DNA from: an uncultured Gammaproteobacteria bacterium
GTDB lineage: Bacteria > Patescibacteriota > Microgenomatia > UBA8517
NCBI GenBank assembly: GCA_964524515.1
Contig: CAZGEA010000001.1
Span: 169,522 to 233,521, forward strand
Reading direction: 5' to 3'
DNA: 64,000 nt
The position numbers were made by a program, and so were the translations under genes. Numbering within the stretch: the stretch's first letter is position 1; each line of letters begins with the position of its first letter. The notes below the pieces were generated by a model that saw only the letters and a program-made list of their open reading frames with translations, was not told where the DNA came from and did not search any database. Positions 2,255 through 11,227 of the stretch are shown here, piece after piece.

Positions 2255-2332
2255 GGTGGTAGTAGCTCAGTTGGTTAGAGCGCTGCTCTGTGAAAGCAGA
2301 GGTCGCCGGTTCGAGACCGGTCTACCACCCCA
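2255..2332 (+). tRNA. tRNA-His (anticodon GTG) with encoded G-1 and encoded CCA
   Basis: G-1 followed by acceptor gtggtag/ctaccac, D-stem gctc/gagc, anticodon stem ctgct/agcag with loop ctgtgaa, T-loop ttcgaga, discriminator C then CCA (2330-2332). Confidence 0.9.
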
Positions 2333-2884
2333 AATGATATTTTGAGATTGAGAAACCTCACTTTGAGCCGTATTATTAACGTTTTCGTTAGGTTCGAGCC
2401 GTTCTAATGTATTAATTTCTGTAACTGCCTGCTGAATTTTGAAAAATGGTGTTCGTGCCTCAATTGTAAGTTTTTTATCCTTTAAAAGTAGGTGCGAGCC
2501 AATTGCTCTTAAAATTATTTTACGTTCTTCAATATCCCCATCTGAAAATCTGTCTTGTGCTGTTGCAGCAAAGTCGAATGTTTTAGCGGCCAACTCTGCC
2601 CATTCATCAATATATTTATCTACTTTTGATAATAGCTCTTGCGCCCTAGCTTTTTCGACCAACAGTGATTCTTTTTTCTCTGCAAATTCCTCGTCTGAAA
2701 TTAAAATACCACCTTTATTTGCCTCGGATATTTTTAGTTCAAGTAAATTATCAATTTTTCTTACAATATCTTCATAGGATTTTTTCAATGCCAAATAACG
2801 AGTCTCTCGCGTCTCTTTTTGCTTCTCATTTACAACATTAAGCCATTTAATTGCCCAATCCACAAATTCATAGTCAAGTTTCAT
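2267..2884 (-). CDS. hypothetical coiled-coil protein whose reading frame continues antisense through tRNA-His; possibly a 3'-truncated gene remnant
   Basis: First ATG is at 2884 with an in-frame stop 15 codons upstream. The last ~20 codons are the reverse complement of the tRNA, so the native C-terminus is doubtful. The opposite-strand ORF 2439..2777 is low-complexity and rejected. Confidence 0.3.
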   Translation of the reverse strand: MKLDYEFVDWAIKWLNVVNEKQKETRETRYLALKKSYEDIVRKIDNLLELKISEANKGGILISDEEFAEKKESLLVEKARAQELLSKVDKYIDEWAELAAKTFDFAATAQDRFSDGDIEERKIILRAIGSHLLLKDKKLTIEARTPFFKIQQAVTEINTLERLEPNENVNNTAQSEVSQSQNIIWGGRPVSNRRPLLSQSSALTN

Positions 2885-2986
2885 CGTGCCTAAAATATCA
2901 AAAACCTGCTTCTCAAGTTCTTTTGCTTATTATTCTTCTGATTTGTGATATTTTTGGAATAAAGATTCACAAAAAACAAAGATAAG

Positions 2987-3388
2987 TTACTGATTGCCGG
3001 CGGTCATTTCAAGGTATCGTTTGTACTTTGGGTCTCCTTCCAATCTTTTTATTTCTGCATTAAGCTCTGTATCGGTCATTTGTGAGTAGGCATCCTCAAA
3101 AGCTATTTTATCTGCTTTATATTTTCCAAGTAACTTATAGGCTTTATCTAGCGCTGCGTCCCTAGCCCGCCAGTTTTTGCTTTTTAAGAGCGCTTGATGA
3201 GTTTTGAGCAGGTTCTCTTCTGACAAGTAGTCTTTCATCAGCTCCTGCCATCCTCTACTTTGAGTGAGCTGTTGTGGGTTTTTATAAGAGCCGGCTTTAT
3301 ATCCGGATTCTTTCATAGCCGTGGATACCGACTTTCCAGTATTTTCCAGTAATTTGTGGACGACAAGTTTTTGCTTGAGAGTGGACAT
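2987..3388 (-). CDS. phage terminase small-subunit-like HTH DNA-binding protein (Terminase_2-like)
   Basis: Starts at ATG 3388 (MSTLKQ); the longer ORF-track start at 3541 adds an unlikely hydrophobic extension. Contains the TerS-type HTH signature MKESGYKAGSYKNPQQLTQSRGWQELM, comparable to AGYS...A..S.LL. No large terminase gene is nearby. Confidence 0.45.
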   Translation of the reverse strand: MSTLKQKLVVHKLLENTGKSVSTAMKESGYKAGSYKNPQQLTQSRGWQELMKDYLSEENLLKTHQALLKSKNWRARDAALDKAYKLLGKYKADKIAFEDAYSQMTDTELNAEIKRLEGDPKYKRYLEMTAGNQ

Positions 3389-3406
3389 CTGTATATGTAG
3401 TATAAT

Positions 3407-4093
3407 ATGCCAATGCTCTCTATTGAGAGCATTTTTGTTATTTATATGGACAGAAATGAAGAAATAATTGGCTACTATTCTAATCAGCCTACATGGCAGC
3501 TTGTAAAGTTTAGTGCTTACAAGAGGCAATTTACTCATCAATTAGCAATTCACTATTTGGAACACGAAATTTTTGAGTCAGTGGACAGAGAGATGCAGCA
3601 TATCCTAAGTGGACAAAATGCAGGATTTTATGCTGGCCTTAGATTTTTGTTTGCGGAAGTTACAGCGCTATCCCATTTATATTGGGGGGTAAAATCATTT
3701 ATCCCTCGTAAGGAGAGTGCATATGTTGCCAGATTTATGAGAAAGTTCGGAGTGTTACCTCCTGAGCATGGTGTCCATTATGAAACATTCAGGCATGGAC
3801 TGATGCACTCTCATCATCCAAAGTGGATAAAAAAAGGAAATCGAATTATAGGTTGGTATATTAGTAATACAGCAAAAGCAAACAGCTTCGGAATCTTCAT
3901 TCCCGAGTTCACCGAGCAAGTTAAAAATACCATTAGTGCTTTTATTGCCGAGTTGAGGGTAGAAGAAATAGCAGGTAAAAATACCCGACTCAAAAAATTT
4001 ATTGAAGGATATACCCACACCGCCAAAGTATTGAAGCGTAGGGACTTAGGCAAATACTCAAGAACGGATTTTTCAAAAGTACCTATTACCTAA
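3407..4093 (+). CDS. hypothetical protein with a HEPN-like R-x4-H motif (FRHGLMHSHH); first gene of a four-gene cassette
   Basis: The ORF ends 1 nt before the next gene. An alternative start at ATG 3446 (MDRNEE) is more compatible with the -10-like tagtataat at 3397-3405. Histidine-rich. Family not recognised. Confidence 0.4.
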   Translation: MPMLSIESIFVIYMDRNEEIIGYYSNQPTWQLVKFSAYKRQFTHQLAIHYLEHEIFESVDREMQHILSGQNAGFYAGLRFLFAEVTALSHLYWGVKSFIPRKESAYVARFMRKFGVLPPEHGVHYETFRHGLMHSHHPKWIKKGNRIIGWYISNTAKANSFGIFIPEFTEQVKNTISAFIAELRVEEIAGKNTRLKKFIEGYTHTAKVLKRRDLGKYSRTDFSKVPIT

Positions 4094-4094
4094 G

Positions 4095-5051
4095 ATGAAG
4101 ACAAAGAATCTATTTTCAGGCAGGAAAAAGTTTGTAACCATTCCAGTTGCCGCACTTCTCGGCCTGTTTTTCCTTCCTGTAACTATTGGCATTTTACTTA
4201 TTTACTTTTCAAATAAGAAAATTAGGTTAAAACCTTTGCGTTATTCTATTGTCGGCATACTCTCCTTAATTACCCTATTTTTTGGAACTGCCTATGTAGC
4301 AGCTTTTGTATCCCCAAGCACCCCTAAACAGGAAACGAAAGAGCCGGAAGCGGTAATTTCGACAAGTCCTACGCCAATTCTTGCTATGCAAAATCAAGGC
4401 TTGGTAAAAGTAACGCGGGTGATTGATGGAGACACGATTGAAATTGAAGGTGGACAAAGGGTAAGGCTAATTGGCATAGATACTCCGGAGACAGTTGACC
4501 CAAACCGCCCTGCCGGATGCTATGGCACCGATGCCAGTAGTTTTACAAAAGCTCAACTTGAAGGCAAAGAAATAAAACTAGAAAAAGATATTTCAGAAAC
4601 AGACCAATATGGAAGATTATTGCGTTATGTATGGCTTGGAGACACTTTATTTAATGAAACCCTTGTCAAAGAAGGCTATGCTCAAGTCTCAACTTACCCG
4701 CCGGATGTAAAAAACAGCGAAAGATTTTTAGCTGCTCAAAAAGAAGCAAGAGACAATAATCGAGGTTTGTGGTCTACATGCCAAAACACCCCTGCTCCCA
4801 GTACATCTGTCTCAACTCCGAAGCCAGTTACAGCTACCCCAAAACCCAATGTGGCAACTCAACAAACCCAAACTTCCGGCTCGTGTAAGTATTCTTGCAA
4901 TTCACCGGATAGAGATTGCTCTGATTTTTCAACCCATGCAGAAGCACAAGCGTTTTTCAACTGTTGTGGATTCTCTGCCGGCAATGACCCTATGAGACTT
5001 GATAAGGCCACTGGAACAGGAAATGGAATTGCCTGCGAGAGTTTACCTTAG
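4095..5051 (+). CDS. membrane-anchored thermonuclease (SNase/micrococcal nuclease family) with C-terminal Excalibur calcium-binding domain
   Basis: Two N-terminal TM helices. SNase motifs VIDGDTIEIE, RLIGIDTPE and YGRLLRYVW. A Thr/Pro-rich linker leads into an Excalibur-like C-terminus (CSDFSTHAEAQAFF...DKATGTGNGIACE). Confidence 0.85.
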   Translation: MKTKNLFSGRKKFVTIPVAALLGLFFLPVTIGILLIYFSNKKIRLKPLRYSIVGILSLITLFFGTAYVAAFVSPSTPKQETKEPEAVISTSPTPILAMQNQGLVKVTRVIDGDTIEIEGGQRVRLIGIDTPETVDPNRPAGCYGTDASSFTKAQLEGKEIKLEKDISETDQYGRLLRYVWLGDTLFNETLVKEGYAQVSTYPPDVKNSERFLAAQKEARDNNRGLWSTCQNTPAPSTSVSTPKPVTATPKPNVATQQTQTSGSCKYSCNSPDRDCSDFSTHAEAQAFFNCCGFSAGNDPMRLDKATGTGNGIACESLP

Positions 5052-5059
5052 AATTAATT

Positions 5060-6979
5060 ATGGAAAATAAAATCTCAAAAGCGACCAGACAGCTAATTTT
5101 TGACTTTTTAAAAGCTGAGAAAATAAAGTGGTTCGGTAGTTCAGATGATATATCATTTTTGGAAAAAATATTTGATTTGGAAAATTTACCGTCGACTGAT
5201 GGTAGATACAGCAATGTAAAGGGAGATATTTTTCAACACAGACAGAATAATGCGGATTGGGAAGACGATTGGATTTTCACAGACAGCCGGTTCAACCTCC
5301 TGAATTGTGAAGATAGCATATATTGTAAATTTATAGAGGAGATTTTAAATCCACTAATAAGAGCAGAAAACGAAATAGACTCTATAATCTCCTTTGCAAA
5401 TGACGCACTCAAAAGAGATAAATATCTAATCGTAAAAAAGGAAAAAATTGGAGGAAAGCAGTTTTATCAAATTCTTCCACTTAAATGGGTTGAATCAATA
5501 AAAGATATTGAGTTCCGAGTCGTTCGAGGGAATACTCCACCCGCTTACTATATCAATGAACCTTCTAGATTGATATTAAAGTGGGACAACTGGAACGATT
5601 ACGGATATGAAACACTTTTTTACTTGGATTATGTCGATGAGAATAAGAAGGTGCATTCTATTGGTGCAGTCAAAATTGCATTTATTGCCGATAAACCTAA
5701 GGCCGATGAAAAACCACTTTCTACACGTAATGTTTTAGAAGCAGTGTTTTCAGAACTCCCTAGCAATTTTTTTTCACTAGGACAATCACCTGACTACTAT
5801 CAAAATTTATTGAGTTTGGGAAAACCTATTTATACCACCGTTCTTGAAAAACTCCGAGACGTAGTTTTTAACGAAGAAGTCTTAAAAAGTTTCCGGGAAA
5901 CTGAACCGTTTAAAGTCTCTTTGATAAGAGGTTCGGAAGCTGAAAAGGCTTTTGGTGAATCAGGAGAACTATTCAAACTAGAATATAGAAAGTTTGAAGA
6001 TACTTTAAACTTCACGTTTACTACAAGGGTCAAAAACGCTGATAACGAACATGCTGTAACGTTTGACTTTCGAAAAGGAGCGCTACCGCATAGAATACAT
6101 GTCCTGATTGGCAAGAACGGAACTGGAAAAACCATGTTTTTGAATAACCTATCTAACGCTTTGAGCGGAATCTCAGGAGAAAAGCTTAAAAGCGAGTTCG
6201 GTACTTTTGATACAAAGCCAAGTTTTAGGAAAATAATTACTTTCTCATATAGCGCTTTTGATACTTTTAACACTTCAACTCAAAACTCACTAGGATACAA
6301 ATATTGCGGCATTAGGAAAGATGACAATGAACTGTTTTCAAGGAAAGAACTAAAAAGCAAGTTTGTTAACTCTATCAGGCAGCTAAAATCAAAAGGTAGA
6401 GTTCATGATTGGAATCAAGGCATGTTAAAACTTCTGAATATACCTGAAATCGTAAATGAAGATTTTGACGAAGGGGTATGGAGCGATAGATATGACCTCC
6501 TTAGCTCTGGGCAGACAATTATTTGTACACTGCTCGCTGAAACATTGGCATTTATAGAAAAAGAATCTTTGATACTTATAGATGAGCCAGAATTACACTT
6601 ACACCCCAACAGCTTAATAGGCTTTATTAACACACTTTATTTTATTTTGAATAGCTATGATTCCTATGCAGTTTTAGCTACTCATTCTCCAATTGTCGTA
6701 AAGGAGATACCCTCAAAATATATTAATGTTTTCCGTCGTTCTGATAATAGCCCATATATTCAAACATTAAATTTTGAAACTTTTGGAGAGAATTATTCAG
6801 TCATTGCACAGGAAATTTTTGGTCTTATCGAATCTGACCACATATATAAAAAGGTTTTAGAAGAATTGTATAAGGAAACGCTTTCGATTGATGAAGTAAA
6901 AAAGTTATTTAATGGCAACCTTAGTGCAAATGCTGAAATATATCTGAATGTATTAAAAAATAACCATGAAAAAGATTAA
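5060..6979 (+). CDS. ABC/AAA_21-type ATPase (Septu PtuA-like) with an unassigned ~350-aa N-terminal domain
   Basis: Walker A GKNGTGKT at about aa 351, signature-like LSSGQ, Walker B/D-loop LILIDEPELHLHP and H-loop LATHSP. Residues 1-340 match nothing I recognise. The start lies 8 nt after the nuclease stop. Confidence 0.85.
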   Translation: MENKISKATRQLIFDFLKAEKIKWFGSSDDISFLEKIFDLENLPSTDGRYSNVKGDIFQHRQNNADWEDDWIFTDSRFNLLNCEDSIYCKFIEEILNPLIRAENEIDSIISFANDALKRDKYLIVKKEKIGGKQFYQILPLKWVESIKDIEFRVVRGNTPPAYYINEPSRLILKWDNWNDYGYETLFYLDYVDENKKVHSIGAVKIAFIADKPKADEKPLSTRNVLEAVFSELPSNFFSLGQSPDYYQNLLSLGKPIYTTVLEKLRDVVFNEEVLKSFRETEPFKVSLIRGSEAEKAFGESGELFKLEYRKFEDTLNFTFTTRVKNADNEHAVTFDFRKGALPHRIHVLIGKNGTGKTMFLNNLSNALSGISGEKLKSEFGTFDTKPSFRKIITFSYSAFDTFNTSTQNSLGYKYCGIRKDDNELFSRKELKSKFVNSIRQLKSKGRVHDWNQGMLKLLNIPEIVNEDFDEGVWSDRYDLLSSGQTIICTLLAETLAFIEKESLILIDEPELHLHPNSLIGFINTLYFILNSYDSYAVLATHSPIVVKEIPSKYINVFRRSDNSPYIQTLNFETFGENYSVIAQEIFGLIESDHIYKKVLEELYKETLSIDEVKKLFNGNLSANAEIYLNVLKNNHEKD

Positions 6980-7793
6980 TCCATATCGATGTGATAATTT
7001 TGCAGAATATAATAGCGTAGTTGCGAAGAAGTCGAATCAATCTGAAAAAATATTGCTATCTAATGTCAGCTCTAAAGTAGACAATAGATACAAAGAATAT
7101 GAAGATAATACAAGTTCACTAGAAATGATTGGCCTAATTAGTTGGGAAAAGGAAAACGCTAAGGCCTTACGAAATCTAGTTAACAGCCGCACTTATTTCT
7201 CAACGCTTAAAAGGAAGATACGACAGCTTAGCAAAAATGGCAAATGTATGTATTGCGATTTTAGTGAACATGACCCCTTAGACCACTACTTGCCCAAGAA
7301 CCCCTATCCTGAATTTTCAATTTTTAGCCTGAACTTGATACCGTCTTGCAGTAGATGTAATCGATTAAAGCACGATGAAATATTCATTAATGGAAAAAGG
7401 GTGTATCTTAATCCCTACTTTGATGCGATTGACGAAAAGCAATATGTAGTTTGTGACATTTATTTCAAAGGAAGCAATCTTCCCACACCTGAGTTTAGTA
7501 TAGAATCTTATAAAGGCGATACTCTTGCAGAAATATTTTTGACTCATTTTGAGAAGCTTAGTTTGAAAGAAAGATATGAAAATGAGGCTAACGAACTTAT
7601 AACTAATTGGGTTTCGAGAGCTGCACAGATTAAAAACATATCTGGCGATTTTAATACAAATATGAAAAACCTTATTAGAGTTGACCTTAATGCAGATAAG
7701 ACGAGATTCGGGATTAATAATTGGAGATATGCAGTAGAGAAAGCAATGATAGAAAGTGATAAATTTATAGAATATTGTAAAAATGCAGTATAG
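6966..7793 (+). CDS. HNH endonuclease (Septu PtuB-like)
   Basis: HNH core CMYCDFSEHDPLDHYLPKN...SCSRCNRLKHD (two CxxC pairs, DH, N). The start overlaps the ATPase stop by 14 nt, which indicates translational coupling. Confidence 0.8.
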   Translation: MKKINPYRCDNFAEYNSVVAKKSNQSEKILLSNVSSKVDNRYKEYEDNTSSLEMIGLISWEKENAKALRNLVNSRTYFSTLKRKIRQLSKNGKCMYCDFSEHDPLDHYLPKNPYPEFSIFSLNLIPSCSRCNRLKHDEIFINGKRVYLNPYFDAIDEKQYVVCDIYFKGSNLPTPEFSIESYKGDTLAEIFLTHFEKLSLKERYENEANELITNWVSRAAQIKNISGDFNTNMKNLIRVDLNADKTRFGINNWRYAVEKAMIESDKFIEYCKNAV

Positions 7794-10078: not shown

Positions 10079-11227
10079 ATGTTAAATAACAACGATATGA
10101 CACCAGAAAGATCAAAAGATATTACAAATTTAAATGACCCACAAGTTTTAGTTTCTGACGTTCTAAAAATGCGTGAACTAAATCCAGCCAATAGAATGGC
10201 CAAGTTCTTCCCTACAGATTATTTTTTAAGCCAAACACCAGCAGTTCAAGCAGAAATCTCAAAAATTGTAATTGCAGGACTTGCAAACAACGATAGCGAA
10301 ATTGGAGCTTATGCTATGGCAACAACTGACTACGACACTTTTAGTCCAGTTTTAGATCCAATTATCCAAGATTATCATGCAGTTACCCCAGAATTTAAAT
10401 TTCAAGGAAATTGGGACATAAACGGATTAGATTTAGATTTAAAAAAGGTTGATCTTCAATTATCAGATGTTTCAATGAGAGTACGTGTTGCAAGAAATGT
10501 TTCAGGTTGGCCAATGACTGGAAGCATGTCACAAGATGATAGAGTTAATTTTGAAAATTACATGGTCGAAACAGTATTTGAAAAAATGATCTCAAATCCA
10601 AAGTATGGTGGAAGATACGTATCCCTCACTCCTGGATCAAAATATCAAATTTCAGATGATGAATATAACCAATTGGTCGCAGAACACAAAATGTACAAAG
10701 ACATGAGTGCTGATCCTCATCTTGCTGCAGCAGGAATCAGTGGTGATTGGCCATATGGAAGAGGAATGTATGTTTCAGCAGATGGTGGATCAATTGTATG
10801 GGTTAACGAAGAAGATCATTTAAGAATCATGAATATGAAAAAAGGTTCCGATCTATCAACTATTTTCAACGGACTCAGAGAAGAATTGGATTTAATCGAA
10901 TCACTTGGTGTTCCATTTGCAAGATCTGAAAAATATGGCTATGTCACAAGCTGTCCATCAAATTTAGGTACAGGAATGCGCGCAAGCTTACATTTGGCTC
11001 TTCCAAACTTAACTGAAAACGGTAAAAACACCGATAAATTAAAAAATATTTTAAAGGAAAACAAACTAAACGTATCAGTTCGCGGAATAGGTGGAGAACA
11101 CACAGCAGCTGGTGAAGGTGGAATAGTTGATATCTCACCAAGAGGTAGAATGATTCCAGAAAATCAAGTCATAACTCAGCTTTACGACGCAGCAGCAAAA
11201 CTCTTAAGTCTAGAAAAAAGCGCTTAA
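10079..11227 (+). CDS. phosphagen kinase, eukaryote-type arginine kinase family (ATP:guanidino phosphotransferase)
   Basis: Active-site CPSNLGTGMRAS, NEEDHLRIM, WPYGRGMY and C-terminal RGIGGEHT...GGIVDIS. The N-terminal small domain (GAYAMATTDYDTFSPVLDPIIQDYH) matches arthropod arginine kinase, not McsB-type bacterial kinases. Confidence 0.85.
   Translation: MLNNNDMTPERSKDITNLNDPQVLVSDVLKMRELNPANRMAKFFPTDYFLSQTPAVQAEISKIVIAGLANNDSEIGAYAMATTDYDTFSPVLDPIIQDYHAVTPEFKFQGNWDINGLDLDLKKVDLQLSDVSMRVRVARNVSGWPMTGSMSQDDRVNFENYMVETVFEKMISNPKYGGRYVSLTPGSKYQISDDEYNQLVAEHKMYKDMSADPHLAAAGISGDWPYGRGMYVSADGGSIVWVNEEDHLRIMNMKKGSDLSTIFNGLREELDLIESLGVPFARSEKYGYVTSCPSNLGTGMRASLHLALPNLTENGKNTDKLKNILKENKLNVSVRGIGGEHTAAGEGGIVDISPRGRMIPENQVITQLYDAAAKLLSLEKSA

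What the first reader, a model, noticed from the sequence alone, without database searches (positions are those of the whole stretch)
5060..6110. Unassigned ~350-aa N-terminal domain fused to the ATPase
Residues 1-350 (starting MENKISKATRQLIFDFLKAEKIKWFGSSDDISFLEKIF...) carry no motif I can place. Its position ahead of a defence-type ATPase makes it a candidate sensor or effector domain. Trp/Asp-rich segments (WEDDWIFTD, KWDNWNDYGYE) are distinctive.
Basis: seen in the sequence. Interest (0 to 1): 0.55.

Follow-up and report, generated by a model that had tools for sequence, protein, structure and literature searches.

The report
AbiJ-NTD3 fused to Septu-like ATPase
The 350 "unassigned" residues are not one new domain: they are a known, swappable defence input domain (AbiJ-NTD3), a linker, and a second conserved but unnamed domain shared by this whole family of Septu-like defence ATPases, in an architecture already described in 2013.

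Summary
The ORF (5060-6979, 639 aa) and both Trp/Asp motifs are real, but the region before the P-loop is composite. Residues 4-138 match Pfam PF18860 AbiJ_NTD3 (E 2e-42). Residues 147-168 are a variable, low-confidence linker. Residues 169-316 are a separate alpha+beta domain that starts the short (~480 aa) relatives and occurs in at least 1,442 protein clusters. The ABC ATPase begins near residue 317.

The gene overlaps a conserved HNH nuclease gene (6966-7793). PADLOC scores the pair as PDC-M01A/B (8e-141, 4e-55), a Septu-like ATPase-nuclease module.

Anantharaman et al. [quoted passage not shown] A genome scan here found the same domain ahead of HEPN RNases, Ser/Thr kinases and caspases. 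That fits an input or regulatory module, not an effector, but its function has never been tested.

Verdict: a new member of a known kind, of low to moderate interest. The coiled-coil or SMC-insertion alternative is rejected.

The parts
5060..5497 (+). AbiJ_NTD3 domain (residues 1-146). It has five predicted helices, a beta-hairpin (122-140) and a short terminal helix (141-146). It contains the WEDDWIFTD motif (67-75) and the conserved polar set S45 D47 R49 D56 H60 N64 D66 W67 R77.
5498..5563 (+). Inter-domain linker (residues 147-168).
   Evidence: pLDDT below 50 for residues 153-165. Mean pairwise identity is 20%, against 35-43% in the flanking domains.
5564..6007 (+). Family-wide N-terminal alpha+beta domain of PDC-M01A/PtuA-type ATPases (residues 169-316), without a Pfam model. 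It has four predicted strands followed by helices, and contains KWDNWNDYGYE (174-184) and SLGQS (239-243). Invariant residues are W178 D180 G202 S239 Y247 D267 S287 R290.
6008..6859 (+). ABC-type ATPase core (residues ~317-600). Motifs: Walker A GKNGTGKT 351-358 (nt 6110-6133), signature LSSGQ 481-485 (nt 6500-6514), Walker B LILIDEPE 504-511 (nt 6569-6592), H-loop ATHSP 540-544 (nt 6677-6691).
   Evidence: Pfam AAA_21, AAA_15 and ABC_tran. Motif positions. Weak sequence matches to solved PtuA chains over residues 499-606.
6860..6979 (+). C-terminal tail of the ATPase (residues ~601-639) and stop codon. By analogy with PtuA this is the likely docking site for the nuclease partner (inferred).
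   Evidence: Covered by the PDC-M01A/PtuA1 profiles to residue 637. The analogy to the PtuA C-terminal domain that binds PtuB comes from PMC12673091 and PMC12065111. Not tested here.
6966..7793 (+). Partner gene, 275 aa, encoding a zinc-finger HNH nuclease (PDC-M01B, PtuB-like). It overlaps the ATPase gene by 14 nt. The HNH core is residues 94-135 (nt 7245-7370): C94, C97, D106-H107, N123, C128, C131-N132, K135.
   Evidence: PADLOC PDC-M01B E 4e-55; PtuB1 4e-11 over the HNH core; Pfam HNH E 0.0038. A homologous gene directly follows the ATPase in 4 of 4 homologous loci, with the motif residues invariant.

Best explanation
ORF 5060-6979 encodes the ATPase subunit of a two-gene, Septu-like (PADLOC PDC-M01) ATPase plus HNH-nuclease defence module.

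Anatomy (shown). The 350 residues before its P-loop are a stack of parts:
1. An AbiJ_NTD3 domain (residues 1-146).
2. A flexible linker (147-168).
3. A second alpha+beta domain (169-316) that is the N-terminal hallmark of this ATPase subfamily.
4. The first beta-strands of the ABC fold (from about residue 317).

Mechanism (inferred). The ATPase oligomerises and holds the HNH nuclease through its C-terminal tail, as PtuA holds PtuB. The N-terminal stack is the input side. NTD3 is a portable module that other proteins place directly ahead of HEPN RNases, protein kinases and caspases. Here it most likely binds an infection cue, or keeps the complex inactive until such a cue arrives. The signal would then pass through the family-wide middle domain to the ATPase and nuclease.

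The NTD3 polar set (S45 D47 R49 D56 H60 N64 D66 W67 R77) is almost invariant whatever the attached effector. The cue is therefore more likely a chemically constant ligand (a small molecule, nucleotide, metal or nucleic-acid feature) than a fast-evolving phage protein.
For: Domain composition:
- Pfam PF18860 E 2e-42 on residues 4-138.
- PADLOC PDC-M01A 8e-141 and PtuA1 3.4e-81 begin at residues 166-170.
- Short homologues (~480 aa, Bacillus, Flavobacterium and others) start with the middle domain, while 29 of 120 homologues carry NTD3 in front.
- The middle domain is found in 1,442 representatives, nearly always N-terminal.
- Each domain was modelled on its own with high confidence, and the stretch between them has low confidence and low conservation.

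Operon:
- The HNH partner overlaps by 14 nt and is conserved in 4 of 4 homologous loci with an invariant CxxC...DH...N...CxxCN..K motif.

Modularity of NTD3:
- In my scan of 80 genomic loci, BLAST clustering of the C-terminal parts gave classes of 51, 12, 8, 6, 2 and 1. Pfam scans of representatives identified Abi_C HEPN (51 loci), Ser/Thr kinase (12) and caspase (8); two classes (6 and 2 loci) stayed unassigned, and the singleton (L079, a 30-residue C-terminal part) was not scanned.
- The polar set is conserved in at least 97% of 99 domains across these contexts.

The N-terminus as the coupling site in PtuA-type ATPases:
- In Retron-Eco7 the PtuA NTD contacts the RT-msDNA sensor, and deleting it abolishes defence (PMC12673091).
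- Three other long family members (P0177, P0245, P0249) carry N-terminal add-ons unrelated to NTD3 at the same position.

The ATPase motifs are canonical, including LSSGQ.
Against: - No experiment on NTD3 exists. A 2026 review states that no mechanistic information is available for AbiJ (PMC13064643).
- Neither N-terminal domain is hypervariable (35-36% mean identity against 43% for the ATPase), and both are acidic (net charge -5 each). There is no direct sign of nucleic-acid binding or of an arms race with phage proteins.
- Assembly with the HNH partner and the oligomeric state were not modelled.
- Similarity to solved PtuA and PtuB is weak. PtuA chains match at E 3.5e-6 to 0.1 and PtuB chains at E 0.05-0.3, in both cases over the conserved core only. 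The mechanistic transfer from Septu is therefore by analogy.
- PDC-M01 itself is an unpublished candidate system (PMC11811056).
Confidence: 0.6

Rival explanations
1. The middle domain (169-316), and possibly NTD3, is structural rather than sensory. It would provide oligomerisation or partner-docking surfaces, replacing the coiled-coil dimerisation insert of classical PtuA. This family has only about 120 residues between Walker A and the signature motif.
For: - The middle domain is present in essentially all family members and evolves at about the rate of the ATPase, as a core structural part would.
- The Walker A to signature spacing is short (351 to 481). Retron PtuA has a coiled-coil domain inserted in the ATPase that mediates PtuA-PtuA contacts (PMC12673091).
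Against: - The invariant residues are mostly polar (W178 D180 K205 S239 Q242 Y247 D267 S287 R290), which looks more like a binding or active site than a hydrophobic interface.
- No multimer model was run.
- This reading does not explain why NTD3 is shared with monomeric-looking HEPN, kinase and caspase proteins.
Confidence: 0.25
2. AbiJ_NTD3 is a death-fold-like (CARD/PYD-like) homotypic assembly module. It would nucleate higher-order complexes of whatever enzyme it is fused to.
For: - The fusion partners found here (caspase, Ser/Thr kinase, NTPase) mirror CARD-caspase, CARD-kinase and CARD-NLR architectures.
Against: - No death-fold Pfam model is hit by any of 19 NTD3 sequences, even at E up to 10.
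- The nearly invariant polar motif, two long loops and a beta-hairpin are not death-fold features.
Confidence: 0.08
3. NTD3 is itself a small metal-dependent enzyme, for example one that makes or destroys a signal or modifies a target, and not a passive sensor.
For: An Asp/His/Asn/Asp/Arg constellation is conserved in at least 97% of 99 domains regardless of the fused effector. D56 and H60 lie one helical turn apart on predicted helix 53-63, and N64, D66 and W67 follow directly.
Against: - No similarity to any enzyme family in Pfam or the PDB.
- The domain is almost always paired with an obvious enzymatic effector, which fits a regulatory role better.
Confidence: 0.07
4. One reading: one novel ~350-aa sensor or effector domain. 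The reader's own alternative was a coiled-coil or SMC-like insertion of the ATPase.
For: None beyond its position ahead of the P-loop.
Against: - There are two independently occurring domains with a variable linker between them.
- The first is a curated Pfam family.
- The region is N-terminal to the ATPase fold, not inserted in it.
- Neither model is a coiled coil. The longest predicted helix covers residues 292-316.
Confidence: 0.02

Closest known systems
AbiJ-NTD3 + ABC-ATPase architecture of Anantharaman, Makarova, Burroughs, Koonin & Aravind 2013 (PMC3710099; example gi:319955098)
   Same: The same Pfam domain (PF18860) at the N-terminus of an ABC-type ATPase. The paper lists this fusion explicitly and proposes that the AbiJ N-terminal domains accompany interchangeable defence effectors.
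   Different: The paper does not describe the second (middle) domain or the HNH partner. I could not check that gi:319955098 belongs to the same ATPase subfamily.
PADLOC candidate system PDC-M01 (A = ATPase, B = HNH-like)
   Same: Both genes score best against PDC-M01 models (A 8e-141, B 4e-55), and they are adjacent and co-oriented. One PDC-M01A model (PDLC04240, 639 positions) covers the long form including NTD3.
   Different: PDC-M01 is an unpublished, untested candidate. In Bacillus cereus genomes the same loci are often also called Septu (PMC11811056).
Septu PtuA/PtuB (E. coli, PDB 8EE4/8EE7/8EEA) and Retron-Eco7/Ec78 PtuAB
   Same: An ABC ATPase plus an HNH nuclease encoded side by side. 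A PADLOC PtuA1 model matches residues 170-637 at 3.4e-81. In the retron form, the N-terminal part of PtuA is where the sensing component docks (PMC12673091).
   Different: - Solved PtuAs have at most ~75 residues before the P-loop; the window protein has 350.
- Neither N-terminal domain matches any solved PtuA.
- The NCBIfam PtuA equivalog scores 53.9 against a cut-off of 500.
- The signature motif here is canonical LSSGQ, whereas stand-alone Septu PtuA has Leu in place of that Gln and lacks ATPase activity (PMC12819146).
- No retron is present.
AbiJ (NTD3 + Abi_C HEPN RNase)
   Same: The same N-terminal domain with the same invariant polar residues. An example is L001:3998-4903, with PF18860 at 4e-57 and Abi_C at 2e-27.
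   Different: In AbiJ the effector is a fused HEPN RNase within a single ~300-aa protein. Here the domain sits on an ATPase whose nuclease effector is a separate gene.

Membership tests
AbiJ_NTD3 (Pfam PF18860) | Score above Pfam's gathering threshold | tested here: met
   144.9 bits against a cut-off of 32.5, E 2e-42, residues 4-138 on profile positions 1-135 of 167.
AbiJ_NTD3 (Pfam PF18860) | About 140-aa alpha+beta domain at the extreme N-terminus, ahead of a defence-type enzymatic domain (2013 definition) | tested here: met
   The AF2 model has five helices, a hairpin and a short terminal helix over residues 1-146. The domain is N-terminal to an ABC ATPase. Definition in PMC3710099.
AbiJ_NTD3 (Pfam PF18860) | Family-wide conserved residues present | tested here: met
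   S45 D47 R49 D56 H60 N64 D66 W67 R77 F91 P98 are present in the window protein and conserved in at least 97% of 99 domains.
PADLOC PDC-M01 | Adjacent, co-oriented genes matching the PDC-M01A and PDC-M01B models | tested here: met
   A scores 8e-141 (residues 169-637) and B scores 4e-55 (1-271); the genes overlap by 14 nt.
PADLOC PDC-M01 | Demonstrated anti-phage activity | not testable with these tools
   Described as an unpublished candidate system (PMC11811056).
Septu (PtuA/PtuB) | ABC ATPase with intact Walker A, Walker B, signature and H-loop | tested here: met
   GKNGTGKT 351-358, LSSGQ 481-485, LILIDEPE 504-511, ATHSP 540-544.
Septu (PtuA/PtuB) | HNH (beta-beta-alpha-Me) nuclease encoded next to the ATPase | tested here: met
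   C94 C97 D106 H107 N123 C128 C131 N132 K135 are invariant in 5 orthologous partners. Pfam HNH is weak (E 0.0038, below cut-off).
Septu (PtuA/PtuB) | Match to curated PtuA/PtuB models | tested here: inconclusive
   PADLOC PtuA1 PDLC00282 3.4e-81 and PtuB1 4.2e-11 on the HNH core only. NCBIfam PtuA NF041760 scores 53.9 against a cut-off of 500, and TIGR02646 scores 19.9 against 52.15. Solved PtuA chains match at E 3.5e-6 to 0.1 and solved PtuB chains at E 0.05-0.3.
Septu (PtuA/PtuB) | PtuA oligomer (trimer of dimers) clamping PtuB between C-terminal domains | not tested
   No multimer prediction was available.
SMC/Rad50-type coiled-coil insertion | Long antiparallel coiled coil inserted between the Walker A and signature motifs | tested here: not met
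   The region lies before Walker A. Both parts are predicted as compact alpha+beta domains. SMC_N matches only residues 342-379. The Walker A to signature distance is about 120 residues.
Death-fold (CARD/PYD/DED) | Six-helix Greek-key bundle with a significant structural or profile match | tested here: inconclusive

The most novel reading that the evidence does not exclude
AbiJ_NTD3 is a bacterial death-fold-like homotypic assembly domain. On that reading, NTD3-caspase, NTD3-kinase and NTD3-ATPase proteins would be prokaryotic counterparts of CARD-caspase, CARD-kinase and CARD-NLR signalling proteins, and this Septu-like complex would be switched on by NTD3-driven polymerisation. A separate and likelier point is that the middle domain (169-316) may be a fold with no solved representative that defines a very large Septu subfamily.
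Probability: 0.08. Interest if true: 0.7.

Novelty: new member of a known kind. Interest (0 to 1): 0.27.

Why it matters
As it stands this is mainly an annotation correction. The gene pair should be read as a Septu-like (PDC-M01) ATPase/HNH defence module whose ATPase carries a known AbiJ_NTD3 input domain.

Two things remain of some value:
- NTD3 sits in front of at least five different effector types with an almost unchanged polar site. It is therefore a good handle for finding what signal a whole set of abortive-infection proteins responds to, and nobody has tested it.
- The middle domain is widespread (at least 1,442 clusters at 50% identity), is modelled with confidence, and has neither a Pfam entry nor a fold match in the PDB. 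It deserves a family definition and a structure.

Tried and rejected
- Word-indexed protein searches with NTD3 alone and with an NTD3 profile returned only 4 and 10 short proteins. They were too few to survey fusions, though they did confirm the NTD3 + Abi_C architecture (P0271, P0273).
A 7-sequence alignment worked, but its search pattern DWEDDW[VI] samples only one sub-clade, so the 51/12/8/6/2/1 proportions are not unbiased.
- The source genome was not identified:
  - the exact ATPase is not on record in the contig index;
  - cluster look-ups give only 'NCBI, contig 425,521 bp' without a name;
  - no 100% match turned up among the species-representative genomes.
  The closest named relative (40% identity) is from a Patescibacteria MAG, so that origin is only a guess.
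- The afdb50 fold library was unavailable, so structural relatives among predicted structures could not be searched.
- A search for an att-like direct repeat of the upstream tRNA-His found nothing.
- The upstream membrane SNase (4095-5051) was rejected as a system component. It is absent from all four homologous loci.
- An NJ tree of the shared region puts NTD3-bearing proteins at one end of the leaf order, in six all-NTD3 clades (17, 7, 2, 1, 1, 1 members) with short forms interspersed. It is too rough to count gains and losses.
- Li et al. 2024 (PMC12318543) is not held. Septu mechanism statements therefore come from papers that summarise it.

Full report
**Observation.** The window has an intact ORF at 5060..6979(+), 639 aa, beginning MENKISKATRQLIFDF. 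WEDDWIFTD lies at residues 67-75 and KWDNWNDYGYE at 174-184. The Walker A motif GKNGTGKT starts at residue 351 (nt 6110), so the flagged interval is exactly the part of the protein before the P-loop. The sequence features are therefore real. The statement that no motif can be placed there is not correct.

**First part: a known domain.** Residues 4-138 match Pfam PF18860, AbiJ N-terminal domain 3, at E 2e-42 (144.9 bits, cut-off 32.5). The domain was defined by Anantharaman et al. 2013 (PMC3710099) as a ~140-aa alpha+beta N-terminal domain of AbiJ-family HEPN proteins. [quoted passage not shown] The architecture seen here is thus already in the literature.

**Second part: a separate, family-wide domain.**
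- PADLOC's PDC-M01A (8e-141) and one PtuA1 model (3.4e-81) align from residue 166-170 to the C-terminus.
- Among the 120 best homologues, 91 are ~470-515 aa proteins that start with this segment (Bacillus, Peribacillus, Flavobacterium, Alcanivorax and others). The other 29 are ~630-670 aa and add PF18860 in front.
- A full phmmer scan with residues 160-320 against 1.84 billion cluster representatives found 1,442 proteins at E up to 1e-3. Nearly all have the match at positions ~20-150 of ~480-540 aa proteins. In eight of the 150 listed it sits at ~142-313, behind an N-terminal extension.
- Ten hits chosen for unusual length or domain position were scanned against Pfam. All carry ABC-type ATPase or P-loop signatures (ABC_tran, AAA_15, AAA_21) after the domain.
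- The model of residues 160-320 is confident (pLDDT 89.3). It has four strands (170-175, 186-192, 198-208, 237-241) followed by helices, ending in a long helix at 292-316.
- Invariant residues are W178, D180, G202, S239, Y247, D267, S287 and R290.

The linker between the two domains is the least conserved stretch: 20% mean identity, against 35% for NTD3, 36% for the middle domain and 43% for the ATPase. The '350-aa domain' is therefore NTD3, a linker, a middle domain and the first ABC strands. It is neither a coiled coil nor an SMC-type insertion.

**Context.** The ATPase has canonical Walker A, signature (LSSGQ), Walker B and H-loop motifs. Its last 14 nt overlap a 275-aa gene (6966-7793) that scores 4e-55 against PDC-M01B and 4e-11 against PtuB1 over its HNH core.

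A homologous gene follows the ATPase within a few nucleotides in all four homologous loci examined. Three of those carry long forms and one a Bacillus cereus short form. C94, C97, D106-H107, N123, C128, C131-N132 and K135 are invariant. Neighbours in those loci include Schlafen-like genes and DUF6119, which are typical of defence islands. The upstream membrane SNase of the window is not conserved with the pair, so it is not part of the system.

PDC-M01 is an unpublished PADLOC candidate that is often co-called as Septu in Bacillus cereus genomes (PMC11811056). Similarity to structurally solved PtuA and PtuB is limited to the conserved cores, and the NCBIfam PtuA equivalog is far below its cut-off. 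I therefore call the pair Septu-like rather than Septu.

**Does NTD3 occur with other effectors?** A pattern-plus-tblastn scan of one genome per species returned 80 loci from Psychrobacter, Flavobacteriia, Streptomyces, Pseudomonas, Sphingomonadales and others. The parts C-terminal to NTD3 fall into six BLAST classes of 51, 12, 8, 6, 2 and 1 loci. Representatives of these classes are Abi_C HEPN (classical AbiJ), Ser/Thr protein kinase and Peptidase_C14 caspase, with two classes unassigned; the singleton was not scanned. PADLOC calls the first three AbiJ, PD-T4-6/Stk2-like kinases and caspase.

Across these loci plus the ATPase fusions (99 domains), S45, D47, R49, D56, H60, N64, D66, W67, R77, F91 and P98 are conserved in at least 97%. 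The sample is biased by the search pattern DWEDDW[VI]. Most of the listed residues lie outside that pattern.

**Mechanism.** The parts list above is shown. The following is inferred.
- By analogy with Septu and Retron-Eco7, the ATPase oligomerises and clamps the HNH nuclease through its C-terminal helices, and nucleotide state controls nuclease activity (PMC12065111, PMC12819146, PMC12673091).
- In Retron-Eco7 the short PtuA N-terminal domain contacts the RT-msDNA sensor and is required for defence. This makes the N-terminus the natural input site of this ATPase type.
- Three other long family members (P0177, P0245, P0249) carry N-terminal add-ons unrelated to NTD3 at the same position (hhalign probability below 1%).
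- NTD3 is a portable module placed directly ahead of five or more kinds of effector. It is most simply read as the input or autoinhibitory domain, as the 2013 paper proposed.
- Its polar site is the same whatever the effector. I therefore favour a chemically constant ligand over a variable phage protein.

None of this has been tested. A 2026 review says no mechanistic information exists for AbiJ (PMC13064643). Both N-terminal domains are acidic and not hypervariable.

**Rivals.**
- The middle domain may be a structural or oligomerisation element that replaces the coiled-coil insert of classical PtuA. This does not exclude an input role.
- A catalytic role for NTD3 cannot be excluded, but it has no support beyond the residue types.

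**Verdict.** The finding is a real feature that was misdescribed. It is a further member of a described architecture (AbiJ-NTD3 on an ABC ATPase) inside a Septu-like PDC-M01 module. PADLOC already has a 639-position model of the long form. The residual novelty is the unnamed middle domain without a solved fold, and the untested function of NTD3.

Noticed in passing
window 2256-5051: tRNA-His (2256-2332, +) is followed by a recombinase-like fragment ORF (2267-2884, -), a small ORF (2987-3541, -) with no Pfam hit that reads like a helix-turn-helix or terminase small subunit by eye, an unknown ORF (3407-4093, +) and a membrane-anchored SNase. GC content rises to 0.39-0.42 at 3-5 kb. This may be a tRNA-adjacent island carrying the defence pair. 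No att-like direct repeat was found.
   Followed up: partly
window 4095-5051 (+): A 318-aa protein with N-terminal transmembrane helices, a staphylococcal-nuclease domain (Pfam SNase 8.7e-26; NCBIfam NucI-like 7e-41; PADLOC 'C3a212 SNc+LTD' 3e-34) and a Cys-rich C-terminus. It ends 8 nt before the ATPase gene but is absent from all four homologous loci.
   Followed up: partly
window 10079-11227 (+): A 382-aa protein with both ATP:guanido phosphotransferase domains (PF02807 N-terminal and PF00217 catalytic). This is an arginine-kinase-like enzyme, uncommon in bacteria.
   Followed up: no
L054:3698-5146 and seven similar loci (L038, L052, L057, L060, L061, L062, L069): AbiJ_NTD3 fused to a Peptidase_C14 caspase domain (2.9e-42) in Bacteroidota genomes. 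This fusion partner is not in the 2013 list of NTD3 architectures.
   Followed up: partly
L072:3122-3976, L077:4001-4855 (6 loci of this type); L071:3947-4828, L078 (2 loci): NTD3 is followed by ~145-aa and ~136-172-aa C-terminal regions with no Pfam or PADLOC match. These may be further, unassigned effector domains.
   Followed up: partly
P0177 residues 1-140, P0245 1-160, P0249 1-145: Members of the same ATPase family carry other N-terminal add-ons ahead of the middle domain. They have no Pfam hit and no similarity to NTD3 (hhalign probability below 1%). Each is a single representative, so gene-calling errors are not excluded.
   Followed up: partly
L083 (Bacillus cereus GCA_015845455.1), L084, L081: The ATPase/HNH pairs of homologues sit next to Schlafen-like genes (SLFN-g3_helicase, SLFN_AlbA_2) and DUF6119, which fits a defence-island location.
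   Followed up: no
window 12000-64000: GC skew is persistently negative and the cumulative skew falls steadily to the end of the window. GC content is lower (0.24-0.38) than in the first 12 kb.
   Followed up: no
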